Shown one piece after another: positions 45 through 51,530 of a DNA stretch of 64,000 bases. The stretch lies in contig CAXHJY010001494.1 of the NCBI GenBank assembly GCA_964016885.1, positions 7,611 to 71,610 of the forward strand, read 5' to 3'. This DNA comes from Eledone cirrhosa. Taxonomy: Eukaryota. Each line of letters starts with the position of its first letter. Within the stretch, counting starts at the first letter, position 1. The notes below the pieces were generated by a model. The model saw nothing but the letters and a program-made list of their open reading frames with translations. It did no database searches and had not been told where the DNA came from. The position numbers and the translations under genes are program-made.

Positions 45-1222
45 CAGGGGTTCCAAACCTTTGCGCCATCACCCACTTTCACATTGGAAAAATTTCCACG
101 GCCCACCTGTGTAGTAAATATTCAAAAGTTTGTTACTGTTTCGTTATTTCCAATTAGCCTCCTGTACTTTTCCTATACAGGTTCTTCGCATATTTCCTTT
201 GAAATTTTTTTCAGGTACTATATGTTGAAATGCTTTCCTAACACTCAAAATTATGTATCATCACCAAACTTTCCTATCATCTGCCATTTTCCGTTCAGTT
301 TCTCATCGACCACCCAACAGATTTTTCTTTTTTATGTGGGTTCTTTGCATATCTCCTTTCAATATTATTTTCTTTCTTGGGTAGCATCTGTTGAAATACG
401 TCCTTGATACTGACATTTTTATATCACTCACAAACATTTCCAATCACCCACTATTTTTCTGTTTAGTTGCCCATTGCCCACACAACAATTGAAATTGCCC
501 ACTCAAAGTTGAAATTGCCCACTCAGCAGTTGAAATTGCCCACTCAACAGTTGAAATTTCCTACACAACAGTTGAAGTTGCCCACTCAAAGTTGAAGTTG
601 CCCACTCAACAGTTGAAATTGCCCACTCAACAGTTGAAGTTACCCACTCAAAGTTGAAATTGCCCACTCAGCAGTTGAAGTCACCCACAGAACAGTTAAA
701 ATTGCCTACACAACAGTTGAAGTTGCCCACTCAAAGTTGAATTCGCCCACACAACAGTTGGAGTTGCCCACTCAACAGTTGAAATTGCCCCCTCAACAGT
801 TGAAATTACCCAATCAGCAGTTGAAGTCGCCCACACAACAGTTGAAATTTCCCACGGAACAGTTGAGGTCGCCCACTCTACAGTGGAAATTGCCCACTCA
901 ACAGTTGAAATGCCCACACAACAGTTGAAATTGCCCACACAACAGTTAAAATTGCCCACTCAACAGTTAAAATTGCCCACTCAACAGTTGAAATTGCCCA
1001 CACAACAGTTGAAATTGCCCACTCAACAGTTGAAATTGCCCACACAACAGTTGAAATTGCCCACACAACAGTTGAAATTGCCTACACAACAGTTGAAATT
1101 GCCTATACAACAGTTGAAATTGCCCACACAACAGTTGAAATTGCCCACTCTACAGTTGAGGTCGACCACTCTATAGTTAGTCACCCACCGTTATGCGATA
1201 TCACCCATGTTGAGAAACCCTG
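45..1222. mobile_element. Non-autonomous hAT-type DNA transposon carrying an internal minisatellite
   Basis: Left end CAGGGGTTCCAAAC (45-58); right end reverse-complements to CAGGGTTTCTCAAC (11/14 match). Exact 8-bp TSD TTCTAACC at 37-44 and 1223-1230; 8-bp TSDs and CAG termini are hAT hallmarks. Confidence 0.85.
465..1175. repeat. 21-bp minisatellite (CAGTTGAAATTGCCCACWCAA)n, about 33 units
   Basis: Directly visible tandem units; explains the QQLKLPT and WAISTVV ORFs. Confidence 0.95.
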
Positions 1223-7140: not shown

Positions 7141-7430
7141 CAGATCACCATGGGTTTTGCGGCGCCTAGAAAGTTCCCTCTCCAAGGCACAAGTCCAAGC
7201 AATATTGGTTTATGGAAGACCAGCAGCCTCCCATACATACCAGACTCCGCCTCTTCATGCCACCGATGTTGTCCAAGGGAAAGGCAATGGACAATACAGC
7301 TTGGCACCAGTGACGTCTCAACTCATACCTACAGCTCAGTAAACTGGAGCAACACGAAATATAAAGTGTCTTGCTCAAGGTCACATAGTATCACCCAGTC
7401 AGAGAATCGAACTAACAAACTCATGATTGC
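7141..7430 (-). mobile_element. CORE-type tRNA-derived SINE-B
   Basis: Minus strand has B box GTTCGATTC followed by GACCTTGAGCAAGACACTTTAT (CORE-like); related to 8710-8905, 21325-21545 and 51400-51530. Confidence 0.65.
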
Positions 7431-7682
7431 GCGCCGAGGTTAACTTTGCCTTTCATCCTTACAGGGTCGATAAAATAAAGTACCAGTAATGTACTGGGAT
7501 AATTGTTGGCCTTGTGCCAAAAATAGAAACAATTATATTATATGCATATAATGGCCATTACCATTCTGAGTTCAAATCCCGCCGAGGTTAAATTTGCCTT
7601 TCATCCTTATGGGGTCGATAAAATAAAGTACCAGTAATGTACTGGGTAATTGCTGGCCTTGTGCCTAAAATAGAAACAATTA
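7431..7682 (+). mobile_element. Two tandem 5'-truncated SINE-A copies
   Basis: Family consensus 3' parts at about 7431-7536 and 7552-7682. Confidence 0.8.
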
Positions 7683-8709: not shown

Positions 8710-8905
8710 TCGATAGTTGATCAACAAGATCCCAGACCTCATTCGCTTAACGAATAGGGTGGAGCTCATCAAATCGGACCGAGGAAACAATGTTCCCATT
8801 GGCTTTGCTAATTGCTAGTACTATCTATCGGTCGCAACTCCAGGCAGAAGGAGCAACGTGAAATAAAGTGTCTTGCTCAAGGACATAATGCATTGCCCGG
8901 TCTGG
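8710..8905 (-). mobile_element. SINE-B 3' portion
   Basis: Reverse complement of 21400-21545 (GTCCTTGAGCAAGACACTTTATTTCACGTTGCTCC...GGAGTTGCGACCGATAGATAG). Confidence 0.75.
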
Positions 8906-15375: not shown

Positions 15376-16008
15376 GTTTCTTTATTAGCCACAGGGGCAC
15401 AAAAGAAGGGGACAAATATAAAGGGGGAAATTTACATACCATAAAAACGTGTAAAATACTATCACAAATACAATTTAAAAGTTAATCGATTTTCCCCAAT
15501 AGGGGGAGACAGTTCATATGGGTAACACATACCCCCGAAAAAATGTGCAACCCTCATCTCCAGGAGTACGAAGAGTTTGTACTCCTTTCCTCTCCTCCTC
15601 CTTTTCCTCAACCTACAGGCTGATATAGAGAGAAGGGCCATTCACTCGGGCCATTCTCGCCACTTTCACCTTTCATAAAACTTGCTGGGGTACAGCACCT
15701 CTCTCTCCATCCTGATTCTTCTTCCAAAGTGGTATTTGAAAAAAAGAATCAGTTGTTGGCCGGAGAGAAAGGTGTCTGACCTCAGTCCTTTTAACCTCGT
15801 CCACCATACAACCTCTTTCGCCATAGCTATCACACAAAGGAAAACCGCCTCTCCTTCGTTTTTGAAGGAGGGTGGCGGTTTGATCATGACAATGGACTCG
15901 GTGGTCAACCGGATTGGTCCCACCCGCGACAAAAGTCGTTCTACATAGCCCCACAGGTCAGTGACGCCCGGGCAGTGTATGAATGCGTGCGCGACGGTTT
16001 CTTCGTTA
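15376..16008 (-). mobile_element. Tx1-family LINE 3' remnant, subfamily B, in a GATA tract
   Basis: Encodes EETVAHAFIHC...SRVGPIRLTTESIVMIKPPP...[16 protein letters not shown] plus 3' UTR ending AATAAAGAAA; GATA repeats on both flanks. Confidence 0.92.
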
Positions 16009-19737: not shown

Positions 19738-19740
19738 ATA

Positions 19741-20104
19741 ACCACTTTAGAAGAAGAATCAGGATGGAGAGAGAGGTGCTGTACCCCAGCAAGTTTTATG
19801 AAAGGTGGGTGAAAGTGGCGAGAATGGCCCGAGTGAATGGGCCTTCTCTCTATATCAGCCTGTAGGTTGAAGAAAAGGAGGAGGAGAGGAAAGGGGTACA
19901 AACTCTTCGCACTCCTGAAGATGAGGGTTGCACATTTTTTTCGGGACCTATGTGTTACCCATATGTAATGTCTCCCCCTATTGGGGAAAATCGATTAACT
20001 TTTAAATTGTATTTGTGATAGTATTTTACACGTTTTCATTGTATGTAAACTTCCCCCTTTATATTTGTCCCCTTCTTTTGGGCCCCTGTGGCTAATAAAG
20101 AAAC
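19741..20104 (+). mobile_element. Tx1-family 3' remnant, subfamily B
   Basis: [40 protein letters not shown] plus 3' UTR; directly follows (CTAT)n at 19664-19738. Confidence 0.92.
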
Positions 20105-20408: not shown

Positions 20409-20551
20409 CGATAAATTAACGGAGGCATAGGCCCTCGCTATTCCCTTTAAATAATGTGCTCAAAGGAGAAGAGATTCTGAGCTCTTTAAAATACAATATG
20501 TTGAGAAGGTAACACACTATATATCTCTCTCTGGTGTGTTACCTTCTCAAC

Positions 20552-20592
<41 letters not shown>

Positions 20593-20794: not shown

Positions 20795-20985
20795 TATGAA
20801 AATGTTCATGACACCGACGGCTGAGCTCCGGCCATTTCGACAGCTAGATCCGAACTGTTCGGCTCTAGCCGTCGAAACGGCCGGAGCTCAGCCGTCGGGG
20901 ACCTGACGTTTCATATTACCCACTCTACTGCCCCAAGTATCGAGTACTCTGGTGGGTTATGGTCCACCTGGTATTTTACTACCAC
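20795..20985. mobile_element. Family F2 asymmetric inverted dimer
   Basis: CCGACGGCTGAGCTCCGGCC.TTTCGAC.GCTAG arm and its reverse complement, then tail ACCCACTCTACTGCCC.AAGTATCGAGTACTCTGGTG. Confidence 0.7.
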
Positions 20986-21111
20986 CTATCTCATCTGCTT
21001 ATCTCTCCATTAATCTAGCCGTCTATCTACCTATCAATATGAATGATGCTGAACCTACGGCTGAGCTGATGCTGTTTCAACAGCTAATTCCGAACTGTCA
21101 ATCAGTCTGTC

Positions 21112-21324: not shown

Positions 21325-21545
21325 GTGGTGAAGGCGTGTGGCTGAGTGGTTAGAGAATTGGATTCGCAATCGTAAGGTTGTGAGTTCGATTCCTGGACCA
21401 GGCGATGCGTTATGTCCTTGAGCAAGACACTTTATTTCACGTTGCTCCTTCTACCTGGAGTTGCGACCGATAGATAGTATTAGCAATTGGAAAGACCAAC
21501 GGAAACATTGTTCCCTCGGTCCGATTTGACGAAAGTCGATCGTTC
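21325..21545 (+). mobile_element. CORE-type tRNA-derived SINE-B, full length
   Basis: A box TGGCTGAGTGG, B box GAGTTCGATTCC, CORE-like GTCCTTGAGCAAGACACTTTATT. Confidence 0.8.
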
Positions 21546-21551
21546 CTTAAA

Positions 21552-21597
<46 letters not shown>

Positions 21598-21651
21598 CCA
21601 TCCATCTACCTATCAATCTATCCATCCATCTACCTATCAATCTATCTATCT

Positions 21652-22390
21652 ACCAACAACTGCACAACCAACACAATCACCACAACTACCACTACAAAAA
21701 CAACCACCACAGCTCAAACCAAAACAAAACAATGTCCAACCCATCCCCTCTACTCAAAAAACAAAAACAATTTCCAAAACACCCGTACCGCAAACACAAC
21801 CCGAAAATATACCCCTCCCCTCCAACGCGGAAGATGACCCTAGTTCGTCGTCAGACGAGGAGGAGCACTTCCACACAATCAAAAGAAAAAAAAGAAAACA
21901 CACCTCAGACACACAAATGAAAAAAACCCCTCCCCAAAACATAACACTGACACCAACACAAAAGAGCTCACAACAGCAAACAAAAAACACCACACAAAAA
22001 CAAAAACATGCATACACATACATAAATACAAGAAACAAAAAACTGTTAAACATTGTGTACAACAACAATCTAATAAAAACACAAGGGCCTAACTTCACCC
22101 AGGCAGGGGATTTCCCCCACCTCAAAATGATTAAGGCCCCACAGGACACCTATAAAACTTTAAAAAACAATTTTAAAGAGGACGTGGGTCCCCCCTGCGT
22201 CGGGCCCATTAACCGCGTCCTCCTAAAAAACTATCCCACCCCCTCCCCAAACACCCCCACAACTCCAAGCTCCCCAACCACACAACACACTGATGCCCCC
22301 ACACTTCCACAAACCACCACCCCACCCAACAACCCATCCCCCACCCTAATGGAAATTGTGCAGCCCGATACCCGGGACGCAGAGAGGTAA
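21652..22390 (+). pseudogene. Truncated ORF1 C-terminal part of copy 1
   Basis: Nearly identical to copy 2 ORF1 (PTTAQPTQSPQ...PDTRDAER*); lacks the N-terminus and zinc knuckle. Confidence 0.9.
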
Positions 22391-22414
22391 GTGCCTTTTC
22401 TCTTCACCACCAAC

Positions 22415-25400
22415 ATGGCTATGCTAAGAGTAGGCTGTTTAAATGCGCGTGGCCTGGGCTCAACTTGGAAGCAAGCAATGCTTCTAAATGACCTCAGGTC
22501 ACAACGTATAGATGTGATGGTTATTTGCGAGGCCCGGATCAGCAACGTGCGACAGCTGGCCCCCACCTTTGATGACTTTGAGATGCACGCATCTCTCTGT
22601 CAGCCCGGAGGTGGGGGTGGAGTTGTCGTTCTGCTGCAAAAACATCTGGGTCTCTCAACACAGATGGTACATTTGGACCCGGAGGGTCGACTAGTGGTTC
22701 TGGACCTTGGCAGTGGTAAAGGCGGAGCGTTTAGGTTGGTAGCCGCCTACGGCCCTTTCGGGTCAATGCGGCCGGACTTCTTCCATCGTCTGGAGACTTT
22801 TCTAGGGACGTCCCGCTCCTTGCTATTAGTGGGGGACTGGAATGGTATCCTAGATGCACGCTGGGACTACGTAGGGGCCTGCCCCGATAGAGAGGGGTGT
22901 AATAGCCTCAAAGGGTTAATCGGTCGATTTGACCTGGCCGATAGATATCGACTAGATTTTCCGACTGCGCCAACCTGGACTCGGGCAAATCGTAGCGGAT
23001 CATCTAGGTCGTACCTAGATAGGTTCTTAGTTAGAATTAAGGATAAGGACTTTTTAAGTTGTCCAAAAATGCGCATGGTTGGCTATTCAGACCACAAATT
23101 AGTGACCTGCATGGTCAACCTTGACAGAACTCATAGACAGGGCCCCGGTTACTGGAAGCTCAACTTGTCCTTGCCGGCAAGTAGAGCCTACAGGAATCGG
23201 ATTAGTACGTTAGTTAAGGAACGGTTGACTGGAGCGATCGTCAACAGCAGGTGGTGGGTATCTCTAAAGAGAGAGATTAGAGTAGTCTCGATAGAATTTA
23301 GTAAGGTTCTAGCTGCGGATAGGAATAGGAAGGAAAGGGAGCTAATAGATAGAGTAGAAGAGGCAATTAGAAGCGGCGACGTGGCCAGAGTGCTAGCGTC
23401 GAGAACGGCTTTGAGCCAGTTTTTCGACGCGAAGCACGAAGGCTGCGTTGTCCGAAGTAAAATACGTGCTCTAGGGAACGAGGGGACCAAAGCTGTTAGC
23501 TGGGCCCGCGTGACAGAGGCCAACAGTGGAACTAAATCCACCATCCGGTCTTTGCGAGACCTGGATGGACGGGCGATTCTTGAGCCTAAGCAGATGTGTG
23601 AGGCCTTTCAAAGGCACTTTGCCCGACTGTTCGGGAGGGGCGGGGAGCCGGTTGGGAACGTGGACTTCGGTCCATACCTCGACGGCCTGCCGCGCCTCTC
23701 GGACAGGGAGGCGAAGTCCTGCGAGGGGCCGATTTCGGCCGCTGAGATAGAGGACGTGCTGAGCCAATGCGGCAAACGCAAATCCCCGGGTCTCGATGGT
23801 CTTCCTTACGAATTATATCTAGCTATGCCGGACTTGTTCCCCGATCTCCTCGAGGCGGTCTACTGCAACTGGCAACAGAACGGGAGAATTCCCTGTACTG
23901 TGACCAAGGGCGTAGTCACGCTAGTGAGGAAGGACGAGAACAAGGGGGACGAAATAAGTAACTTCAGGCCCATAACTCTGCTAAATACAGAGTTACAGAT
24001 TTTGGCCAAGGTGCTAGCAAAGAGGTTGGCGCTTGTCGTGGGCAACCTGGTGGGAGATGCGCAGACATGCGCTATCCCGTCCAGGTCCATCCATGACAAC
24101 CTCCACCTCATGCGATACATCATAGAGAGGGTTGGGAACGAACCCGGCTTTGGTGGGGCTCTGATCAACTTGGATCAATCTAAGGCGTTCGATAGGGTCG
24201 ACCATGGTTACCTGGATGCGGTGCTAGCGGCGGCAGGCTTCGGACCCGTTTTCAGGGGCTGGATCACTGCTATGCACAGCAGCCGCATCTGCTCTAGGGT
24301 CAAGGTGAACGGCTACCTCTCGGAGCCGTTCAAAATCGCGCGGTCCATCCGACAAGGGTGCCCTCTCTCCTCCCTTCTGTATGTGTTGACTCTCGAGCCA
24401 CTACTGCGGAAGTTGGAGTTGTTGCAGGGCATCCCTTTGGAACCGGGATTGCGGAAAGCGGTGTCGGCCTACGCCGATGACGTGACAGTAATGGTGTCGA
24501 CGGCCTCCGAAATCGAGGCGGTCGGCACCTTACTGGAGGAGTACGAAAAATTCACAGGGGCTAAGCTGAACCGGGACAAGTCGATCGGTTTGCAACTCGG
24601 CACGTGGAGGGGCAGACCGATGCCCTCCGATAGCGTCGTCGGACGCTGGACGGAGGGCCCGGTGAAGTTGCTCGGGGTCTGGTTCGGACCGGACCTCCAG
24701 GTAGAGAAAAACTGGGCGGAGGTTACGAACAGGGTGTTTGCACTGACCCAGAAGTGGGCCAGTTGCAAACTATCCCTGAAAGGTCGGGCGGAGGTGGCGA
24801 ACACCTACATAGCGTCCGTCATCTACTACCGCCTGACCGTAGTACCCTGCCCAAGGGAAACCCTCACCAAGATGGAGCGCGCGCTCTTCCAATTCCTTTG
24901 GAAGAGGCGGGCTCCTATGGTGAGGAGATCCATCTGCTGTCAACACCCTTCGAAAGGAGGGCTGGGGATGCCGTGGCTAATGATGCGTAAACACGCATTA
25001 AGGCTACGGCACCTCTACGTATTCCTCACCGGACAACCGGTGTGGGCCTCGTTTGTGAGACGAACCTTTCCCAGACTCGTCTCACTCACCGAGCTGCAAT
25101 CCTGGGTCAAGCAGAGACCGAGAAAACTGGGCGCCTGGCACACTGAGTGTGCCCAGGCGCTCACCGCCCTCTGGCAGGCGGATCCGGTTATCAGTGGAGA
25201 CTCCACCGCAACATTCTATAGAGGGCTGGTACGCAGCAGGTGCGACGACGCCCTCGGAGAAGCCCTAGACATGGAGGAGGACGAACTGGCCAGCCTGTTC
25301 GGTAGGACATTCAGCCCGGGACCTATGGACAACTTCCAGAAGTCCCTGGCCTGGCAGTGCTACCGAGGGGCTTTACCCGTTCGAGAAAGGCTCTACAGAC

Positions 25401-25852
25401 ACGGGCGCCCGGGTAGGGACCCCGCCAAAAAGATCTGTCCCAGATGCGTGTGCGACGAGGAAACCGTTGCACACGCATTAGTACACTGCTCGGGCGTAGC
25501 CGATCTGTGGGGCTATGTCGAACAACTGCTGTCAAGGGTGGGACCGATCCGGTTGACCACCGAGTCTATTGTAATGATCAAGCCGCCTCCCCCCTTCAAA
25601 GATGAAGCAGAGGCGGTGTTTCTGTGCGTAATAGCCATGGCGAAAGAGGTTGTATGGTGGACGCGTCTGAAAGGACTGAGGTCGGGCACCTTTCTCTCTG
25701 GCCAACAACTGGTCCGTTTCTTCCGATATCATTTCGGAAGAAGGATCAGGATGGAGAGAGAGGTGCTGCACCCCAGCCGTTTCTATGAAAGATGGGTGAA
25801 AGTGGCGAGAATGGCCCGTGTGAATGGGCCTTCACTCTACATCAGACTATAG
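22415..25852 (+). CDS. Tx1/L1-group ORF2: APE endonuclease, reverse transcriptase, C-terminal CCHC
   Basis: LNARGL, ICEAR, GDWNG, YLDR, SDH (APE); SPGLDG, FRPITLLN, DQSKAFDRVDH, RQGCPLS, YADD (RT); CPRC..ETVAHALVHC. First ATG at 22415 (CAACATGG); the frame is open from 22391. Confidence 0.96.
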   Translation: MAMLRVGCLNARGLGSTWKQAMLLNDLRSQRIDVMVICEARISNVRQLAPTFDDFEMHASLCQPGGGGGVVVLLQKHLGLSTQMVHLDPEGRLVVLDLGSGKGGAFRLVAAYGPFGSMRPDFFHRLETFLGTSRSLLLVGDWNGILDARWDYVGACPDREGCNSLKGLIGRFDLADRYRLDFPTAPTWTRANRSGSSRSYLDRFLVRIKDKDFLSCPKMRMVGYSDHKLVTCMVNLDRTHRQGPGYWKLNLSLPASRAYRNRISTLVKERLTGAIVNSRWWVSLKREIRVVSIEFSKVLAADRNRKERELIDRVEEAIRSGDVARVLASRTALSQFFDAKHEGCVVRSKIRALGNEGTKAVSWARVTEANSGTKSTIRSLRDLDGRAILEPKQMCEAFQRHFARLFGRGGEPVGNVDFGPYLDGLPRLSDREAKSCEGPISAAEIEDVLSQCGKRKSPGLDGLPYELYLAMPDLFPDLLEAVYCNWQQNGRIPCTVTKGVVTLVRKDENKGDEISNFRPITLLNTELQILAKVLAKRLALVVGNLVGDAQTCAIPSRSIHDNLHLMRYIIERVGNEPGFGGALINLDQSKAFDRVDHGYLDAVLAAAGFGPVFRGWITAMHSSRICSRVKVNGYLSEPFKIARSIRQGCPLSSLLYVLTLEPLLRKLELLQGIPLEPGLRKAVSAYADDVTVMVSTASEIEAVGTLLEEYEKFTGAKLNRDKSIGLQLGTWRGRPMPSDSVVGRWTEGPVKLLGVWFGPDLQVEKNWAEVTNRVFALTQKWASCKLSLKGRAEVANTYIASVIYYRLTVVPCPRETLTKMERALFQFLWKRRAPMVRRSICCQHPSKGGLGMPWLMMRKHALRLRHLYVFLTGQPVWASFVRRTFPRLVSLTELQSWVKQRPRKLGAWHTECAQALTALWQADPVISGDSTATFYRGLVRSRCDDALGEALDMEEDELASLFGRTFSPGPMDNFQKSLAWQCYRGALPVRERLYRHGRPGRDPAKKICPRCVCDEETVAHALVHCSGVADLWGYVEQLLSRVGPIRLTTESIVMIKPPPPFKDEAEAVFLCVIAMAKEVVWWTRLKGLRSGTFLSGQQLVRFFRYHFGRRIRMEREVLHPSRFYERWVKVARMARVNGPSLYIRL

Positions 25853-26114
25853 GTGAGGAAGATGAAAGACCAAGGGAGCACCCCTTCTCTGTGCTCCTGA
25901 GGAGAAGGGTTGCACACTTTTTTCGGGGGTGTGTGCGACCCCCCAAGGCGCCTCCTCTCTATTGAGGATTTTGTTAAAAATTTTATTTTTTGTTATATCT
26001 TATTTTATTTTTATATTTTGTTATTGCCTCCTCCTTATTGAGGACGCCTTTTTGTGTAAACTCCCCCCTTTGTACTTGTCCCACTTTTGATGCCCTAGTG
26101 GCAAATAAAAGAAA

Positions 26115-26225
26115 TCTATCTACCTATCTACCTATCTATCTATCCATCCATCTACCTATCAATCTATCTACCTATCTATCTATCCATCCATCTACCTATC
26201 AATCTATCTATCTATCTACCTATCT
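26115..26225. repeat. (TATC)n-derived spacer between the two Tx1 copies
   Basis: Same TATCCATCCATCTACCTATCAATC variant unit as upstream of copy 1 (21595-21651). Confidence 0.9.
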
Positions 26226-26440
26226 GGGGATGGACACACGCGTATAACTTGCTGAGTAAATTCTGTTTAAATTTCTATAGAAATTCTTGTCTGATAACTT
26301 TAATTTTTGTACCATTTTGTAGAGGGACTGCCAGGTCAAACTTTGATCTGGTCAGTCTCTCAAAATATTCTACGCCTTTAGGCGAAATAGTTAAAAAAAA
26401 AAAAAAGTTTTTTCTTGTTGAAAAGTCAATATTTTTTTAA

Positions 26441-28229
26441 ATGGCCGAAACTTCTTCACCAAAATTCGAAGGCGGAAAGGGGAAGATGAACTTACAGCTT
26501 CCCCCTGCCACTGTCACAGTAGCAGAGGTCAAGAAGAAAGGTCAGCCAGAGGAAGAATTCTCTCCACCTGTTAACCGACAACTTGACGTTGCCATGGCAA
26601 CAACCCAAAGCAGCAACAGCAACAACAACAACAATGCGACGGACGAAAACAACACCAATAACAATAACAATAACAACAACAACAAGACCAATAACGGTGA
26701 CAACAACAACAATGATAACAACAACACCACCAACGACAACAACAACACAAACAAACAAAATTTCTCCTTCGCCGAGACGACAAGGAAAACCCTCGACTAT
26801 CTGCCAGTAGATATAACAAAAGCGAAGGAGCTACTGGCGGATGCGAAAAAATATATAGTGTACGGGGAAAATGGTTCTTTCACAATCCATTCCCCCCCCG
26901 GAACTAAAAAGCCAGAGACTCCTAAACACGGTCATGTTTAGGACAATCTCGAACAAAAGTAAAAAACCAGCTCAACCATCACAGAGCGAGATAGAGCTGG
27001 TTTTAAAAGACGTCATGAAGGACATCACCTTCATTCAGAAGGATAGACTCTACGGGAGTCTATCCATTCTCATGAAGGACAGGGACACAGCAGTGAAACT
27101 GTCCATCAAACCAATCACATCCACCGCATACACCTTCTACCCTACGTACATGGGTAGAAGAACACAAAAAATAAAAATCCACACCATCCTGCCGATTATG
27201 GACATATGGTGGGTTTTGACAGGTTTTCTGGACCTGGAGGATGACATGCTGGTGTCCATGGGAAAGGCATCGGGTGACGCGTTCAGTGGAACGAGCCTCG
27301 AACTTGTAGTTCAAATGAGGCCCGAAAGGATCGCCCAGATCCCTGAACGCGTCATACTGGATGATCTAACCTTCATCAACATTACCGTTGAGGGTAGACG
27401 GCCCTCGTGTTACCTCTGCGGAACCAGAGGTCACCTGAGGGCTGTCTGTCCCCAACTTAATAAGAAAACCCCAATCCTGCCTACACCACCAACAACTGCA
27501 CAACCAACACAATCACCACAACTACCACTACAAAAACAACCACCACAGCTCAAACCAAAACAAAACAATGTCCAACCCATCCCCTCCACTCAAAAAACAA
27601 AAACAATTTCCAAAACACCCGTACCGCAAACACAACCCGAAAATATACCCCTCCCCTCCAACGCGGAAGATGACCCTAGTTCGTCGTCAGACGAGGAGGA
27701 GCACTTCCACACAATCAAAAGAAAAAAAAGAAAACACACCTCAGACACACAAATGAAAAATAACCCTCCCCAAAACATAACACTGACACCAACACAAAAG
27801 AGCTCACAACAACAGCAAACAAAAAACACCACACAAAAACAAAAACATGCATACACATACATAAATACAAGAAACAAAAAACTGTTAAACATTGTGTACA
27901 ACAACAATCTAATAAAAACACAAGGGCCTAACTTCACCCAGGTAGGGGATTTCCCCCACCTCAAAATGATTAAGGCCCCACAGGACACCTATAAAACTCT
28001 AAAAAACAATTTTAAAGAGGACGTGGGTCCCCCCTGCGTCGGGCCCATTAACCGCGTCCTCCTAAAAAACTATCCCACCCCCTCCCCAAACACCCACACA
28101 ACTCCAAGCTCCCCAACCACACAACACACTGATGCCCCCACACTTCCACAAACCACCACCCCACCCAACAACCCATCCCCCACCCTAATGGAAATTGTGC
28201 AGCCCGATACCCGGGACGCAGAGAGGTAA
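26441..28229 (+). CDS. Tx1 ORF1 (gag-like, CCHC zinc knuckle), split by a +1 frameshift at the C8 run 26892-26899
   Basis: ORFs 26441-26941 and 26871-28229 join into about 595 aa if one C is removed; CYLCGTRGHLRAVC knuckle; poly-Asn tract. Confidence 0.85.
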
Positions 28230-28253
28230 GTGCCTTTTCTCTTCACCACCAAC

Positions 28254-31200
28254 ATGGCTATGCTAAGAGTAGGCTGTTTAAATGCGCGTGGCCTGGGCTC
28301 AACTTGGAAGCAAGCAATGCTTCTAAATGACCTCAGGTCACAACGTATAGATGTGATGGTTATTTGCGAGGCCCGGATCAGCAACGTGCGACAGCTGGCC
28401 CCCACCTTTGATGACTTTGAGATGCACGCATCTCTCTGTCAGCCCGGAGGTGGGGGTGGAGTTGTCGTTCTGCTGCAAAAACATCTGGGTCTCGCAACAC
28501 AGATGGTACATTTGGACCCGGAGGGTCGACTAGTGGTTCTGGACCTTGGCAGTGGTAAAGGCGGAGCGTTTAGGTTGGTAGCCGCCTACGGCCCTTTCGG
28601 GTCAATGCGGCCGGACTTCTTCCATCGTCTGGAGACTTTTCTAGGGACGTCCCGCTCCTTGCTATTAGTGGGGGACTGGAATGGTATCCTAGATGCACGC
28701 TGGGACTACGTAGGGGCCTGCCCTGATAGAGAGGGGTGTAATAGCCTCAAAGGGTTAATCGGTCGATTTGACCTGGCCGATAGATATCGACTAGATTTTC
28801 CGACTGCGCCAACCTGGACTTGGGCAAATCGTAGCGGATCATCTAGGTCGTACCTAGATAGGTTCTTAGTTAGAATTAAGGATAAGGACTTTTTAAGTTG
28901 TCCAAAAATGCGCATGGTTGGCTATTCAGACCACAAATTAGTGACCTGCATGGTCAACCTTGACAGAACTCATAGACAGGGCCCCGGTTACTGGAAGCTC
29001 AACTTGTCCTTGCCGGCAAGTAGAGCCTACAGGAATCGGATTAGTACGTTAGTTAAGGAACGGTTGACTGGAGCGATCGTCAACAGCAGGTGGTGGGTAT
29101 CTCTAAAGAGAGAGATTAGAGTAGTTTCGATAGAATTTAGTAAGGTTCTAGCTGCGGATAGGAATAGGAAGGAAAGGGAGCTAATAGATAGAGTAGAAGA
29201 GGCAATTAGAAGCGGCGACGTGGCCAGAGTGCTAGCGTCGAGAACGGCTTTGAGCCAGTTTTTCGACGCGAAGCACGAAGGCTGCGTTGTCCGAAGTAAA
29301 ATACGTGCTCTAGGGAACGAGGGGACCAAAGCTGTTAGCTGGGCCCGCGTGACAGAGGCCAACAGTGGAACTAAATCCACCATCCGGTCTTTGCGAGACC
29401 TGGATGGACGGGCGATTCTTGAGCCTAAGCAGATGTGTGAGGCCTTTCAAAGGCACTTTGCCCGACTGTTCGGGAGGGGCGGGGAGCCGGTTGGGAACGT
29501 GGACTTCGGTCCATACCTCGACGGCCTGCCGCGCCTCTCGGACAGGGAGGCGAAGTCCTGCGAGGAGCCGATTTCGGCCGCTGAGATAGAGGACGTGCTG
29601 AGCCAATGCGGCAAACGCAAATCCCCGGGTCTCGATGGTCTTCCTTACGAATTATATCTAGCTATGCCGGACTTGTTCCCCGATCTCCTCGAGGCGGTCT
29701 ACTGCAACTGGCAACAGAACGGGAGAATTCCCTGTACTGTGACCAAGGGCGTAGTCACGCTAGTGAGGAAGGACGAGAACAAGGGGGACGAAATAAGTAA
29801 CTTCAGGCCCATAACACTGCTAAATACAGAGTTACAGATTTTGGCCAAGGTGCTAGCAAAGAGGTTGGCGCTTGTCGTGGGCAACCTGGTGGGAGATGCG
29901 CAGACATGCGCTATCCCGTCCAGGTCCATCCATGACAACCTCCACCTCATGCGATACATCATAGAGAGGGTTGGGAACGAACCCGGCTTTGGTGGGGCTC
30001 TGATCAACTTGGATCAATCTAAGGCGTTCGATAGGGTCGACCATGGTTACCTGGATGCGGTGCTAGCGGCGGCAGGCTTCGGACCCGTTTTCAGGGGCTG
30101 GATCACTGCTATGCACAGCAGCCGCATCTGCTCTAGGGTCAAGGTGAACGGCTACCTCTCGGAGCCGTTCAAAATCGCGCGGTCCATCCGACAAGGGTGC
30201 CCTCTCTCCTCCCTTCTGTATGTGTTGACTCTCGAGCCACTACTGCGGAAGTTGGAGTTGTTGCAGGGCATCCCTTTGGAACCGGGATTGCGGAAAGCGG
30301 TGTCGGCCTACGCCGATGACGTGACAGTAATGGTGTCGACAGCCTCCGAAATCGAGGCGGTCGGCACCTTACTGGAGGAGTACGAAAAGTTCACAGGGGC
30401 TAAGCTGAACCGGGACAAGTCGATCGGTTTGCAACTCGGCACGTGGAGGGGCAGACCGATGCCCTCCGATGGCGTCGTCGGACGCTGGACGGAGGGCCCG
30501 GTGAAGTTGCTCGGGGTCTGGTTCGGACCGGACCTCCAGGTGGAGAAAAACTGGGCGGAGGTTACGAACAGGGTGTTTGCACTGACCCAGAAGTGGGCCA
30601 GTTGCAAACTATCCCTGAAAGGTCGGGCGGAGGTGGCGAACACCTACATAGCGTCCGTCATCTACTACCGCCTGACCGTAGTGCCCTGCCCAAGGGAAAC
30701 CCTCACCAAGATGGAGCGCGCGCTCTTCCAATTCCTTTGGAAGAGGCGGGCTCCTATGGTGAGGAGATCCATCTACTGTCAACACCCTTCGAAAGGAGGG
30801 CTGGGGATGCCGTGGCTAATGATGCGTAAACACGCATTAAGGCTACGGCACCTCTACGTATTCCTCACCGGACAACCGGTGTGGGCCTCGTTTGTGAGAC
30901 GAACCTTTCCCAGACTCGTCTCACTCACCGAGCTGCAATCCTGGGTCAAGCAAAGACCGAGAAAACTGGGCGCCTGGCACACTGAGTGTGCCCAGGCGCT
31001 CACCGCCCTCTGGCAGGCGGATCCGGTTATCAGTGGAGACTCCACCGCAACATTCTATAGAGGGCTGGTACGCAGCAGGTGCGACGACGCCCTCGGAGAA
31101 GCCCTAGACATGGAGGAGGACGAACTGGCCAGCCTGTTCGGTAGGACATTCAGCCCGGGACCTATGGACAACTTCCAGAAGTCCCTGGCCTGGCAGTGCT

Positions 31201-31691
31201 ACCGAGGGGCTTTACCCGTTCGAGAAAGGCTCTACAGACACGGGCGCCCGGGTAGGGACCCCGCCAAAAAGATCTGTCCCAGATGCGTGTGCGACGAGGA
31301 AACCGTTGCACACGCATTGGTACACTGCTCGGGCGTAGCCGATCTGTGGGGCTATGTCGAACAACTGCTGTCAAGGGTGGGACCGATCCGGTTGACCACC
31401 GAGTCTATTGTAATGATCAAGCCGCCTCCCCCCTTCAAAGATGAAGCAGAGGCGGTGTTTCTGTGCGTAATAGCCATGGCGAAAGAGGTTGTATGGTGGA
31501 CGCGTCTGAAAGGACTGAGGTCAGACACCTTTCTCTCTGGCCAACAACTGGTCCGTTTCTTCCGATATCATTTCGGAAGAAGGATCAGGATGGAGAGAGA
31601 GGTGCTGCACCCCAGCCGTTTCTATGAAAGATGGGTGAAAGTGGCGAGAATGGCCCGTGTGAATGGGCCTTCACTCTACATCAGACTATAG
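28254..31691 (+). CDS. Tx1 ORF2 of copy 2 (APE-RT-CCHC), intact
   Basis: Same motifs as copy 1; six amino-acid differences by visual comparison. Confidence 0.96.
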   Translation: MAMLRVGCLNARGLGSTWKQAMLLNDLRSQRIDVMVICEARISNVRQLAPTFDDFEMHASLCQPGGGGGVVVLLQKHLGLATQMVHLDPEGRLVVLDLGSGKGGAFRLVAAYGPFGSMRPDFFHRLETFLGTSRSLLLVGDWNGILDARWDYVGACPDREGCNSLKGLIGRFDLADRYRLDFPTAPTWTWANRSGSSRSYLDRFLVRIKDKDFLSCPKMRMVGYSDHKLVTCMVNLDRTHRQGPGYWKLNLSLPASRAYRNRISTLVKERLTGAIVNSRWWVSLKREIRVVSIEFSKVLAADRNRKERELIDRVEEAIRSGDVARVLASRTALSQFFDAKHEGCVVRSKIRALGNEGTKAVSWARVTEANSGTKSTIRSLRDLDGRAILEPKQMCEAFQRHFARLFGRGGEPVGNVDFGPYLDGLPRLSDREAKSCEEPISAAEIEDVLSQCGKRKSPGLDGLPYELYLAMPDLFPDLLEAVYCNWQQNGRIPCTVTKGVVTLVRKDENKGDEISNFRPITLLNTELQILAKVLAKRLALVVGNLVGDAQTCAIPSRSIHDNLHLMRYIIERVGNEPGFGGALINLDQSKAFDRVDHGYLDAVLAAAGFGPVFRGWITAMHSSRICSRVKVNGYLSEPFKIARSIRQGCPLSSLLYVLTLEPLLRKLELLQGIPLEPGLRKAVSAYADDVTVMVSTASEIEAVGTLLEEYEKFTGAKLNRDKSIGLQLGTWRGRPMPSDGVVGRWTEGPVKLLGVWFGPDLQVEKNWAEVTNRVFALTQKWASCKLSLKGRAEVANTYIASVIYYRLTVVPCPRETLTKMERALFQFLWKRRAPMVRRSIYCQHPSKGGLGMPWLMMRKHALRLRHLYVFLTGQPVWASFVRRTFPRLVSLTELQSWVKQRPRKLGAWHTECAQALTALWQADPVISGDSTATFYRGLVRSRCDDALGEALDMEEDELASLFGRTFSPGPMDNFQKSLAWQCYRGALPVRERLYRHGRPGRDPAKKICPRCVCDEETVAHALVHCSGVADLWGYVEQLLSRVGPIRLTTESIVMIKPPPPFKDEAEAVFLCVIAMAKEVVWWTRLKGLRSDTFLSGQQLVRFFRYHFGRRIRMEREVLHPSRFYERWVKVARMARVNGPSLYIRL

Positions 31692-32909
31692 GTGAGGAAG
31701 ATGAAAGACCAAGGGAGCACCCCTTCTCTGTTCTCCTGAGGAGAAGGGTTGCACACTTTTTTCGGGGGTGTGTGCGAGCCCCCAAGGCGCCTCCTCTCTA
31801 TTGAGGATTTTGTTAAAAATTTTATTTTTTGTTATATCTTATTTTATTTTTATATTTTGTTATTGCCTCCTCCTTATTGAGGACGCCTTTTTGTGTAAAC
31901 TCCCCCCTTTGTACTTGTCCCACTTTTGATGCCCTAGTGGCAAATAAAAGAAACTTATCTATCTACCTCTCAATCTTTCTATATCTACCGATCCATCTAT
32001 CTATCTATTTATTTACCTCCCAATCAATCCATATATATATATATATATATATGTCTATCTATATATCTATCCTTCTATCCAGTTCTATTCACAAACAGTT
32101 ATCTGTCTAACAAGCTAGTTAGCAAGTACGCCATTCAACTACTTGTGCCTCTCATTGTCAATGCTTCTGTCCACCCAGCCACATAACCACCCAGCTACCC
32201 TGTCTATCAGTCACCCAGAAGTCCATCTAGCTGATCTGTGTGTCGTGAGTGGACACGTAAAATGGTGTCCATCTTGAGTGTCCTTCAAAACAACACTGAC
32301 CACTCCAGAAACAAAGAAGTTCGGTCTATAAACGCAAATGATCCAACATACACATATGTACACACATATATACATACATGTACATATACACATATATATA
32401 CACATATATACACATATATACACATACTTACACACGTTTACATATAAGCTCGCGTGTGTGTGTACACACACACACACACACACATATGTGTGTGTGTGTG
32501 CATTTAAATATATATATATTTACATGTATACATATATAATATATATATATATATATATGTGTGTGTATATATATATATAAGCTTAATGGATCTTTATGAA
32601 TATATATATTTACATACATATATATATATATGATTATATATATATATAGATAGATAGATATATATATGTATATACATTTATATATATATATGATATCACA
32701 CACACATAATATATATATATATATATAACACACACACATAATATATAAATATATATATTATGAGTGTGTATACATATTACATATATATGTGTATATATGC
32801 GTATCTATAAACTGCAAATGTATGTTTATACATACGTATATTTATGTATATATATATACGTGTATATGTATTATATATGTGTGTGTATGCATATATATAT
32901 GTATATAAG

Positions 32910-39940: not shown

Positions 39941-40254
39941 TACCCCAGCAAGTTTTATGAAGGGTGGGTGAAAGTGGCGAGAATGGCCCGAGTGAATGGG
40001 CCTTCTCTCTATATCAGCCTGTAGGTTGAGGAAAAGGAGGAGGAGAGGAAGGGAGTACAAACTCTTCGTACTCCTGGAGATGAGGGTTGCACATTTTTTC
40101 GGGGGTATGTGTTACCCATATGAACTGTCTCCCTCTATTGGGGAAAATCGACTAATTTTTTAAATTGCATTTGTGATAATATTTTACACGTTTTTATTGT
40201 ATGTAAACTTCCCCCTTTGTATTTGTCCCCTTCTTTTGTGCCCCTGTGGCTAAT
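39941..40254 (+). mobile_element. Tx1-family 3' remnant, subfamily B
   Basis: [27 protein letters not shown] plus UTR; inside a (TATC)n tract. Confidence 0.92.
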
Positions 40255-40307: not shown

Positions 40308-40313
<6 letters not shown>

Positions 40314-40426
40314 ATTTTATTTTTATATTTTGTTATTGCCTCCTCCTTATTGAGGACGCCTTTTTGTGTAAACTCCCCCCTTTGTACTTGTCCCACTTTT
40401 GATGCCCTAGTGGCAAATAAAAGAAA
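40308..40426 (+). mobile_element. Tx1-family 3' UTR tip, subfamily A (same as copies 1 and 2)
   Basis: Essentially identical to the last ~120 bp of copies 1 and 2; (TATC)n on both sides. Confidence 0.92.
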
Positions 40427-40485
40427 CATATCTATCTATCTATCTATCTATCTATCTACCTACCTAAGTATCTTTTTTTAAGTAC

Positions 40486-40562
40486 ATTTTTTCGGGGTGT
40501 GTACAACCCCTGTGTAACGCCTCCCCCCATTGGGGATTTCAATTGTTATTTGTTATTTTGTT
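40486..40562 (+). mobile_element. Tx1-family 3' UTR fragment, subfamily C-like
   Basis: TTTTTTCGGGGTGTGTACAACCCC...CCCCATTGGGGATTTCAATTGTTATTT, matching 47575-47640. Confidence 0.65.
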
Positions 40563-40564
40563 AA

Positions 40565-40745
40565 TTGGCAGTATCGGTAGAGAGTCGGACGCCATGCTTT
40601 CTAGCATAGTTATGTCCCTTTACGATCTGAGTTCAAATCCCGCCGAGGTTGACTTTGCCTTTCATCCTTACGGGGGTCGATAAAATAAAGTACCAGTAAT
40701 GCACTGGGTTATTGCTGGCCTTGTGCCTAAAGTAGAAACAGTTAT
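40565..40745 (+). mobile_element. SINE-A
   Basis: Full consensus match. Confidence 0.85.
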
Positions 40746-41124
40746 TTTACTAGTGATGCTAGTAGTGGTAGTGGTCTTACTAGCGATGACCATGGTGGTT
40801 ATTGGTGTTGATGGTGATGATGATTGTTGTATTGTTGATGATGGCGATGATGGTGGTTGTGGTGGGGGGGGGGGGGGTAATAGTACTATTATTATTATTA
40901 TTAGTAGTGCTAGTAGTAGTAGTAATATTAGTGGTGGAAAGTAAAATAGTTTATAGTGGTAGTGATGAGAAGGAAGATGACGTATGGGGTAGAGGTGGTG
41001 GAGGATGAGAAGGTGGCAGAGGAGGGCCTGCCACCCTTATTATACCACATATACACCAGCCTCCCACTACCACCCACTCACTACCCCCTTCTAATTGAAT
41101 GTGTAAATAAAGATTGTCTGTCCT

Positions 41125-47316: not shown

Positions 47317-47753
47317 GAGGGCAAACACCTTTCTCTCCGGACAACAACTTATCCCCTTCTTTAAGTATCACTTCAGAAGGAAGGTGAGAGTGGAGAGAGA
47401 GGTGCTACACCCCCAGTAAATTCGCTGAAAGGTGGGTGAATGTGGCGAAAATGGCCCGAGTGAATGGGCCTTCTCTGTATATCTAAACCTGTAGGGTGGG
47501 GAAGATAAACAGAGGGAAGACAAACGGGAACACCTACAAAACGTGTTCCTGGTGTTGAGGGTTGTTCTATCCACGGGGTGTAAAACAACCCTGCAGTAAC
47601 GTCCTCCGTCCCCCTATTGGGGATTTCAATTGTTATTTTATTATATATAGTTTATTGTTATTTATTAATGTTAAAGTTATTTTTATGTAAAACCCCCCGC
47701 CGTCACGTCTTGTAATGTCCCATTTTTGTACGCCCCTGTGGCAAATAAAGAAA
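47317..47753 (+). mobile_element. Tx1-family 3' remnant, older subfamily C
   Basis: [55 protein letters not shown] (frameshifted); UTR ends AATAAAGAAA; CTAT-type flanks. Confidence 0.9.
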
Positions 47754-51399: not shown

Positions 51400-51530
51400 C
51401 TGAGTAAACTGGAGCAACGTGAAATAAAGTGTCTTGCTCAATGACACAACACATCATCCGGTCCGAGAATCGAACTCACAACCTTTCGATTGCAAGCCCA
51501 ATGCTCTAACCACTAAGCCATGCGCCTTCA
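51400..51530 (-). mobile_element. SINE-B
   Basis: Reverse complement of the 21325 copy head and CORE-like region. Confidence 0.75.

What the first reader, a model, noticed from the sequence alone, without database searches (positions are those of the whole stretch)
25853..26114. Three covarying stem-loops in the Tx1 3' UTR conserved across subfamilies
Seen: hairpin 1 has a 7-bp stem and exactly 9-nt loop in all three subfamilies, with compensatory changes: A GGAGCAC-cccttctct-GTGCTCC (~25875), B GGAGTAC-aaactcttc-GTACTCC (~40052), C GGAACAC-ctacaaaac-GTGTTCC (~47527). Hairpin 2: GGGGGT..ACCCCC (A), GGGTA..TACCC (B), GGGT..ACCC (C). Hairpin 3: TCCTC-tctatt-GAGGA (A) versus TCCCC-ctatt-GGGGA (B, C). 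In A the hairpin 1 loop is complementary to downstream GAGAAGGG, so a pseudoknot is possible; this is weaker in B and C. Copy 2 has one mismatch in stem 1. The elements end in AATAAA(A)GAAA with no poly(A). Inference: a selected RNA structure for stringent ORF2 template recognition, unlike poly(A)-dependent mammalian L1.
Basis: partly seen in the sequence, partly recalled or inferred. Interest (0 to 1): 0.72.

Follow-up and report, generated by a model that had tools for sequence, protein, structure and literature searches.

The report
Covarying hairpins in octopus retrotransposon tail
The untranslated tail of a jumping gene that sits in TATC repeats of what is probably an octopus genome keeps two stems paired through matched mutations in three subfamilies, and these likely fold into an RNA handle that the element's own enzyme would grip when copying itself.

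Summary
The feature is real but partly misdrawn. The window holds eight pieces of an L1/Tx1-type LINE in four subfamilies; the best named ORF2 hit is from Argonauta (59%). Hairpin 1 is confirmed: 8 bp, 9-nt loop, two both-side changes. The real stem is 11 bp (25907-25941) with four both-side changes, and its arms differ at 10-11 of 22 positions between C and A/B. Hairpin 3 is present but statistically weak. Over 24 pairs in A/B/C there are 7 both-side changes and 2 broken cells; 0 of 40,000 independent-substitution simulations matched this. Most likely this is a selected RNA handle for ORF2p, with priming by a target-like tail instead of poly(A); no function was tested. Limits: three informative lineages, template switching not modelled, strand not settled by folding, no partner SINE seen. 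Structured LINE tails are known (L2, SART1, maize L1); my searches found none described for Tx1.

The parts
21652..26114 (+). Copy A1, 5'-truncated L1/Tx1-type LINE; ORF2 frame 22391-25852 open (endonuclease, RT, zf-RVT)
25874..25898 (+). A1 hairpin 1: 8 bp, 9-nt loop, starts 22 nt after the ORF2 stop; 2 both-side changes among A/B/C
25907..25941 (+). A1 hairpin 2, corrected register: 11 bp, loop 25918-25930 with a conserved CGGG(G) core; 4 both-side changes
25953..25968 (+). A1 hairpin 3: 5 bp, one both-side change, weak on its own
26029..26044 (+). Second copy of hairpin 3, only in subfamily A; predicted to cross-pair with the first
26054..26075 (+). Possible weak hairpin with a C-rich loop (A and B; poor in C)
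   Evidence: not tested against a null
26084..26111 (+). Predicted terminal hairpin: U/A-rich lower stem, internal loop, invariant GCC/GGC upper stem with 5-nt loop; covers the AATAAA at 26104-26109
   Evidence: same shape in A, B, C; z -0.8 to -3.5; no both-side change in the upper stem
26115..26225 (+). Degenerate (TATC)n array between A1 and A2: inferred insertion target
26226..31953 (+). Copy A2, apparently full length; ORF1 with CCHC knuckle split over two frames (26441-26941, 26859-28229), ORF2 28230-31691; hairpins 31713-31737, 31746-31780, 31792-31807 with private mismatches at 31732 and 31778
15377..16007 (-). Copy B1, 5'-truncated; hairpins 15586-15562, 15553-15520, 15507-15493
19740..20103 (+). 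Copy B2, 5'-truncated, more decayed; hairpins 19892-19916, 19925-19960, 19973-19987
39942..40254 (+). Copy B3, truncated at both ends; hairpins 40051-40075, 40084-40117, 40130-40144
40308..40426 (+). Fragment A3: last 119 nt of subfamily A, identical to A1/A2, in (TATC)n
40482..40565 (+). Fragment D, fourth subfamily: inner 6 pairs of hairpin 2 (one U-A where A/B have C-G) and hairpin 3; ends at a SINE-like repeat
47318..47753 (+). Copy C1, 5'-truncated; hairpins 47526-47550, 47559-47591, 47609-47623

Best explanation
The 3' UTR of this L1/Tx1-type LINE carries two stems (hairpin 1 and an 11-bp hairpin 2) kept paired by matched changes across three subfamilies, and they likely form a selected RNA handle that ORF2p would bind so as to copy its own RNA into (TATC)n repeats without a poly(A) tail. 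SHOWN: element anatomy, covariation of both stems, fixed loop and linker lengths with freely changing letters, a common 3' end without poly(A), and (TATC)n at the junctions. INFERRED: (1) the stems act as RNA on the sense strand; (2) ORF2p, made just upstream, binds the hairpin 1-3 domain in cis; (3) the predicted terminal hairpin sets the start of reverse transcription and may hide AAUAAA so that the RNA runs on into target-like repeats; (4) the endonuclease nicks the (GATA)n strand, whose 3' end anneals to that tail and primes synthesis.
For: 7 both-side changes and 2 broken cells in 24 pairs x 3 lineages, against null means 0.87 and 12.7, reached in 0 of 40,000 runs; hairpin 1 39, hairpin 2 23 of 40,000. 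Column shuffles with a free helix search: 0 of 1500 reach hairpin 2's score, 8 of 1500 hairpin 1's. A model built from A and B only put the unseen copy C1 in the same register at 43.9 bits, against 22.1 for sequence alone. 95.3% of 149 cells paired against 34-62% in slid registers. Loop 1 differs at 6-8 of 9 letters while keeping its length; fourfold sites differ at 20 of 54 (A-B) and 8 of 19 (A-C). One-side changes give G-U four times and C-A once on the sense strand (read). 7 of 8 5' junctions have a TATC 8-mer within 20 nt against 0.7-1.2% of background positions; 5 of 6 complete ends continue (C/G)(A/T)TAT. Precedent: ZfL2 stem-loops are essential and bound by ORF2p (PMC4176376); target-like RNA raises accurate priming in SART1 (PMC7265360).
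Against: No functional data. Only three informative lineages plus one fragment. The null ignores template switching, which makes both-side changes in one step (PMC8794818); C's changes in hairpin 2 are clustered. The antisense strand folds as well or better against shuffles (z -2.1 to -5.0 versus -1.5 to -2.6). In the whole A1 UTR the free ensemble favours other helices (hairpin 1 about 0.2, hairpin 2 below 0.15), though forcing both costs 1.0 kcal/mol (A1), 0.4-0.7 (B1, B3, C1) and 6.6 (B2). The full-length copy A2 has a mismatch in each stem. The terminal hairpin beats shuffles clearly in 1 of 4 copies tested. No SINE with this tail in the window. No match of the model in 36 of the 129 related loci searched. 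The junctions fall in about five arrays, not eight independent ones.
Confidence: 0.5

Rival explanations
1. The stems are selected RNA structures but serve host-facing steps (RNA stability, export, escape from decay after the ORF2 stop, or 3'-end formation), not ORF2p recognition.
For: Hairpin 1 starts 22 nt after the stop and 240 nt from the end; the tested L2 handle is in the 3' tail. AATAAA is kept in 6 of 6 complete ends. No partner SINE in the window.
Against: All complete copies end at the same place with no poly(A), which needs an RNA feature that positions priming. In SART1 the 3' UTR is reported as essential (PMC3472496 passage).
Confidence: 0.27
2. Only the terminal hairpin and target-like tail are the ORF2p handle; hairpins 1-3 are an accessory fold.
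For: Same two-part shape predicted in A, B and C at the very end, like the upper and lower stems of ZfL2 tails; GCC/GGC invariant in 7 of 7.
Against: No both-side change in its upper stem; the lower stem is a U run against an A run; z only -0.8 to -3.5. The covariation signal is in hairpins 1 and 2.
Confidence: 0.13
3. No selection on structure: old inverted repeats repaired by template switching during replication or reverse transcription.
For: The mechanism is described (PMC8794818 abstract); C differs from A in a block of hairpin 2; folding does not prefer the sense strand.
Against: Hairpin 1 changes are isolated single pairs; G-U pairs and mismatches persist where switching would give perfect complements; loop and linker lengths are fixed while their letters change; hairpin 1 arms differ at 2-5 of 16 against about 40% at fourfold sites.
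Confidence: 0.1

Closest known systems
Tx1-clade microsatellite-targeting LINEs Kibi (TC)n, Koshi (TTC)n and crocodilian Tx1 families in (TTCC)n/(TTTC)n (PMC4494074, passages and section 15)
   Same: L1/Tx1-type domain layout and insertion into a pyrimidine-rich microsatellite.
   Different: Target here is (TATC)n in an octopod-like genome; no 3' UTR structure is described there (0 hits for 'stem' or 'secondary structure'). No tree with named Tx1 references could be built.
Zebrafish ZfL2-1/ZfL2-2 stringent 3' tail stem-loops (PMC4176376, abstract, passages, sections 13 and 20)
   Same: Structured 3' tail with upper and lower stem, bound by ORF2p; loop letters differ between families.
   Different: L2 clade, one terminal stem-loop, tested by experiment. 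Here an L1/Tx1-type element with several hairpins, the covarying ones 146-240 nt upstream, untested.
Maize/sorghum L1 lineage with a covarying 3' hairpin shared with SINEs (PMC3472496, PMC3747384, passages)
   Same: L1-superclade element, compensatory changes in a 3' stem, stringent recognition inferred from sequence.
   Different: One hairpin of about 50 nt, a partner SINE, poly(A) ends common; here two or three stems, no poly(A), no partner SINE seen.
SART1Bm and R1Bm (PMC7265360, passages)
   Same: Repeat-targeting LINE with stem-loops in the 3' UTR; target-like RNA is proposed to anneal to the nicked strand.
   Different: R1 clade; SART1 needs a long poly(A), absent here.
L1-Tx1 families of Octopus vulgaris (PMC13282606, part 1 of 3 and supplement search)
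   Same: 80 L1-Tx1 families annotated, 13 with recent insertions; this element may be among such families.
   Different: What I read gives counts only, no target and no RNA structure; the consensus library was not available.

Membership tests
L1/Tx1 superclade non-LTR retrotransposon | ORF2 with APE-type endonuclease, RT and C-terminal zinc motif | tested here: met
   Pfam Exo_endo_phos and RVT_1 above cut-off, zf-RVT just below; best solved relative is human L1 ORF2p, E 6e-48, against 4e-19 for R2
L1/Tx1 superclade non-LTR retrotransposon | 5'-truncated copies sharing one 3' end | tested here: met
   6 copies end at the same motif; 5 of them are 5'-truncated
Tx1 clade | ORF1 of RRM/CCHC type rather than Transposase_22 | tested here: inconclusive
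   CX2CX4HX4C motif in the translation; Atlas neighbours carry zf-CCHC/RRM at 0.90-0.92; Pfam gave no hit; feature fits Tx1 per PMC5203782
Tx1 clade | RT phylogeny groups with named Tx1 families | not testable with these tools
   No named Tx1 reference sequence was returned; cluster names could not be looked up
Target-specific Tx1 family (over 20% of flanks one sequence type, criterion of PMC4494074) | Flanks share a target | tested here: met
   7 of 8 5' flanks and 4 of 8 3' flanks carry a TATC 8-mer; background 0.7-1.2%; one window only, about five arrays
Stringent-type LINE | Conserved 3' stem-loop with compensatory changes | tested here: met
Stringent-type LINE | A SINE that shares the 3' tail | tested here: inconclusive
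   Neither SINE-like family of the window matches the tail; no genome was held to search
Stringent-type LINE | 3' UTR structure needed for retrotransposition and bound by ORF2p | not testable with these tools
   needs an assay
Any Rfam family | Score at or above gathering threshold | tested here: not met
   0 hits in the window; best weak hits 26.6 of 75 bits and 22.3 of 50 bits, different in A and C

The most novel reading that the evidence does not exclude
An octopod Tx1 lineage is a poly(A)-independent, (TATC)n-specific member of the L1 superclade whose ORF2p reads a multi-hairpin 3' UTR domain (with a YNCG tetraloop on hairpin 2) while a terminal hairpin hides its own poly(A) signal, so that a target-like RNA tail primes insertion. 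It would be an animal model of the ancestral stringent state that mammalian L1 lost.
Probability: 0.2. Interest if true: 0.68.

Novelty: new variant of a known kind. Interest (0 to 1): 0.42.

Why it matters
Whether the L1 superclade began with strict RNA recognition and relaxed to poly(A) in mammals is an open model that rests, in the papers I read, on plant and algal examples. A covarying 3' UTR domain in an animal Tx1-type element with an open ORF2 and natural subfamily variants gives ready stems, loops and swaps to test it. A (TATC)n-targeting, poly(A)-free LINE would also add a target to the site-specific retrotransposons and help explain how these elements cluster in octopus microsatellites. 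The kind of feature itself is not new.

Tried and rejected
Long-range pairing of the purine-rich UTR start with the pyrimidine-rich end: predicted in each subfamily but in different registers and no better than shuffles (656-986 of 1000 as good, 6 of 6 copies). Hairpin in the last ORF2 codons: no drop in synonymous change (4 of 10 fourfold sites against 16 of 44 upstream). Lower helix between the linker and the stretch after hairpin 2: suggestive in A1, B1, B3 (29-65 of 2000 shuffles), not in B2 or C1 (1066, 800 of 2000); left open. G-run of loop 2 pairing with a C-run: no lineage-specific match in swaps; left open. One search had off-by-one cuts for C1 hairpin 3 and D; one search replaces those numbers. 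No genome held. Octopod DNA in viral, metagenome and genome collections: none. Distant relatives: model R1 found nothing in 36 of 129 loci. Read laying gave no new subfamilies; contigs in two runs match A1 across the three hairpins (0 and 1 other letter, the one in the ORF), which marks A2's mismatches as likely private. No RNA holder listed. Cluster names for homologues could not be looked up. ZCCHC3-Tx1 link: not in PMC9004415. Earlier scan findings: none.

Full report
SETTING. The window is microsatellite-rich animal DNA; no genome was held. Two open frames of 1153 codons (22391-25852, 28230-31691) encode endonuclease, RT and a zf-RVT-like motif. The best solved relative is human L1 ORF2p. 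The best named homologue among 48 hits is a protein of Argonauta hians at 59% over the C-terminal part, so the host is inferred to be an octopod. ORF1 of copy A2 has a CCHC knuckle and is split over two frames. BLAST and a covariance model found eight pieces: A1, A2, A3; B1, B2, B3; C1; D. A1 and A2 differ at 27 of about 4466 columns. Fourfold sites differ at 20 of 54 between A and B and 8 of 19 between A and C.

CHECK OF THE OBSERVATION. Hairpin 1 is as described, with an eighth G-U/A-U pair. Hairpin 2 was drawn in the wrong register: the ACCC arm pairs with the invariant GGGU upstream, giving 11 pairs (A 11 of 11, B 10, C 10; D keeps the inner 6). RNAalifold recovers the corrected stem. Hairpin 3 has one both-side change. 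The pseudoknot is an A-only complementarity; in A the same pairing appears as a nested alternative that excludes hairpin 1.

IS IT MORE THAN CHANCE? With one copy per subfamily (A1, B1, C1; the other five pieces left out to avoid counting kin twice), 24 pairs show 7 both-side changes and 2 broken cells. Placing the same numbers of substitutions independently gave means of 0.87 and 12.7 and never reached the observation in 40,000 runs; per helix 39, 23 and 2169 of 40,000. Shuffling alignment columns and searching freely, 0 of 1500 reached hairpin 2's score, 8 hairpin 1's and 555 hairpin 3's. A model from A and B only aligned C1 in the same register and scored it 43.9 bits, against 22.1 without structure; for fragment D the sequence-only model scored higher (29.8 against 25.2). 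Pair counts on the fitted 7-row alignment: 95.3% paired, slid controls 34-62% (this alignment leans to the structure). Hairpin 2 arms differ at 10-11 of 22 positions between C and A/B, loop 1 at 6-8 of 9. So hairpins 1 and 2 are beyond chance and hairpin 3 is not, on its own.

RESULTS AGAINST. The null does not model template switching, which can make both-side changes at once (PMC8794818, abstract). The antisense strand folds as well or better against shuffles; only the G-U to C-A count (4 to 1) favours the sense strand. The free ensemble of the whole A UTR prefers other helices, although forcing both hairpins costs about 1 kcal/mol. A2, the full-length copy, has a mismatch in each stem; contigs from two other runs match A1 there. 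Model R1 finds nothing in 36 of 129 distant loci, and Rfam has no match.

(a) Target: 7 of 8 5' junctions have a TATC 8-mer within 20 nt on the sense strand, against 0.7-1.2% of other positions; 4 of 8 3' flanks do; by coordinates they lie in about five arrays. Tx1 families targeting (TC)n, (TTC)n and (TTCC)n/(TTTC)n are known (PMC4494074). (b) 3' end: after AATAAA(A)GAAA, 5 of 6 complete copies continue (C/G)(A/T)TAT, so the element may end in a target-like tail; B3 stops early at a two-letter overlap with the repeat unit. (c) A terminal hairpin with a U/A lower stem and an invariant GCC/GGC upper stem is predicted in A, B and C and covers the AATAAA; it beats shuffles clearly only in B1 (2 of 500; A1 31, C1 56, B2 105). 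(d) The loop of hairpin 2 can be read as a YNCG tetraloop closed by Y-G (UUCG in A, B, D; CACG in C); both belong to the YNMG consensus (PMC5633025 passages). This is a reading by eye, not a test.

MECHANISM. Most likely (0.5) the UTR folds into a selected handle that ORF2p binds in cis, the terminal hairpin positions the start, and a target-like tail anneals to the nicked (GATA)n strand in place of poly(A). The structure's reality and selection I put near 0.85; each functional step is inferred from ZfL2 (PMC4176376) and SART1/R1 (PMC7265360). Rivals: host-facing RNA functions (0.27), terminal hairpin only (0.13), no selection (0.10).

COMPARISON AND NOVELTY. It works like a stringent-type LINE tail; membership needs an assay, and no partner SINE was seen in the window. 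Tx1 membership fits the domains and target but was not tested by a tree. Covarying 3' hairpins are in print for a maize L1 lineage (PMC3472496, PMC3747384, passages). Searches listed no paper describing a Tx1 3' UTR structure, and searches none describing a (TATC)n-targeting octopus Tx1; I judged most listings by title and abstract start, and the library lacks most subscription papers and Repbase. O. vulgaris has 80 annotated L1-Tx1 families (PMC13282606, part 1 of 3 and supplement search), so the element may already sit in a repeat library. Verdict: new variant of a known kind, interest 0.42.

Noticed in passing
window 26441-28229: ORF1 of the full-length copy A2 is split over two overlapping frames near 26860-26940, by mutation or assembly error; its N-terminal part is asparagine-rich.
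   Followed up: partly
window 40566-40760 and about 20 other places: Abundant SINE-like family at 80-96% identity; one copy starts where fragment D ends. No similarity to the LINE tail.
   Followed up: partly
window 21326-21548: tRNA-like SINE with three further partial copies (8766-8902, 51411-51530, 7346-7431); ARAGORN calls no tRNA.
   Followed up: partly
L081-L121, L125, L129: A bacterial MAG holds contigs full of closely spaced LINE copies, 40-43% identical to this ORF2, probably animal host DNA. 36 UTRs fall into 9 variants (80-93% identical) with their own long conserved stems and a U-rich CGGGG motif like loop 2 here; not matched by model R1 in the 5 such loci searched.
   Followed up: partly
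window 20487-20573: Isolated inverted repeat of about 12 bp that scores weakly on the model (17.2 bits, E 0.078); no ORF2 nearby, probably unrelated.
   Followed up: no
window 20810-20900: GC-rich stretch with what look by eye like inverted repeats next to a (TATC)n array, partly repeated near 21055-21100; possibly a small DNA-transposon remnant.
   Followed up: no
window 25669-25783: Loose inverted self-similarity (about 70% over 120 nt) near the end of ORF2.
   Followed up: no
window 473-1159: Tandem array of a 21-nt unit, 33 copies, 85% matches.
   Followed up: no
window 21587-21652 and 26115-26225: The arrays on both sides of A1 share the same variant higher-order unit, so A1 and A2 sit in one older array.
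   Followed up: partly
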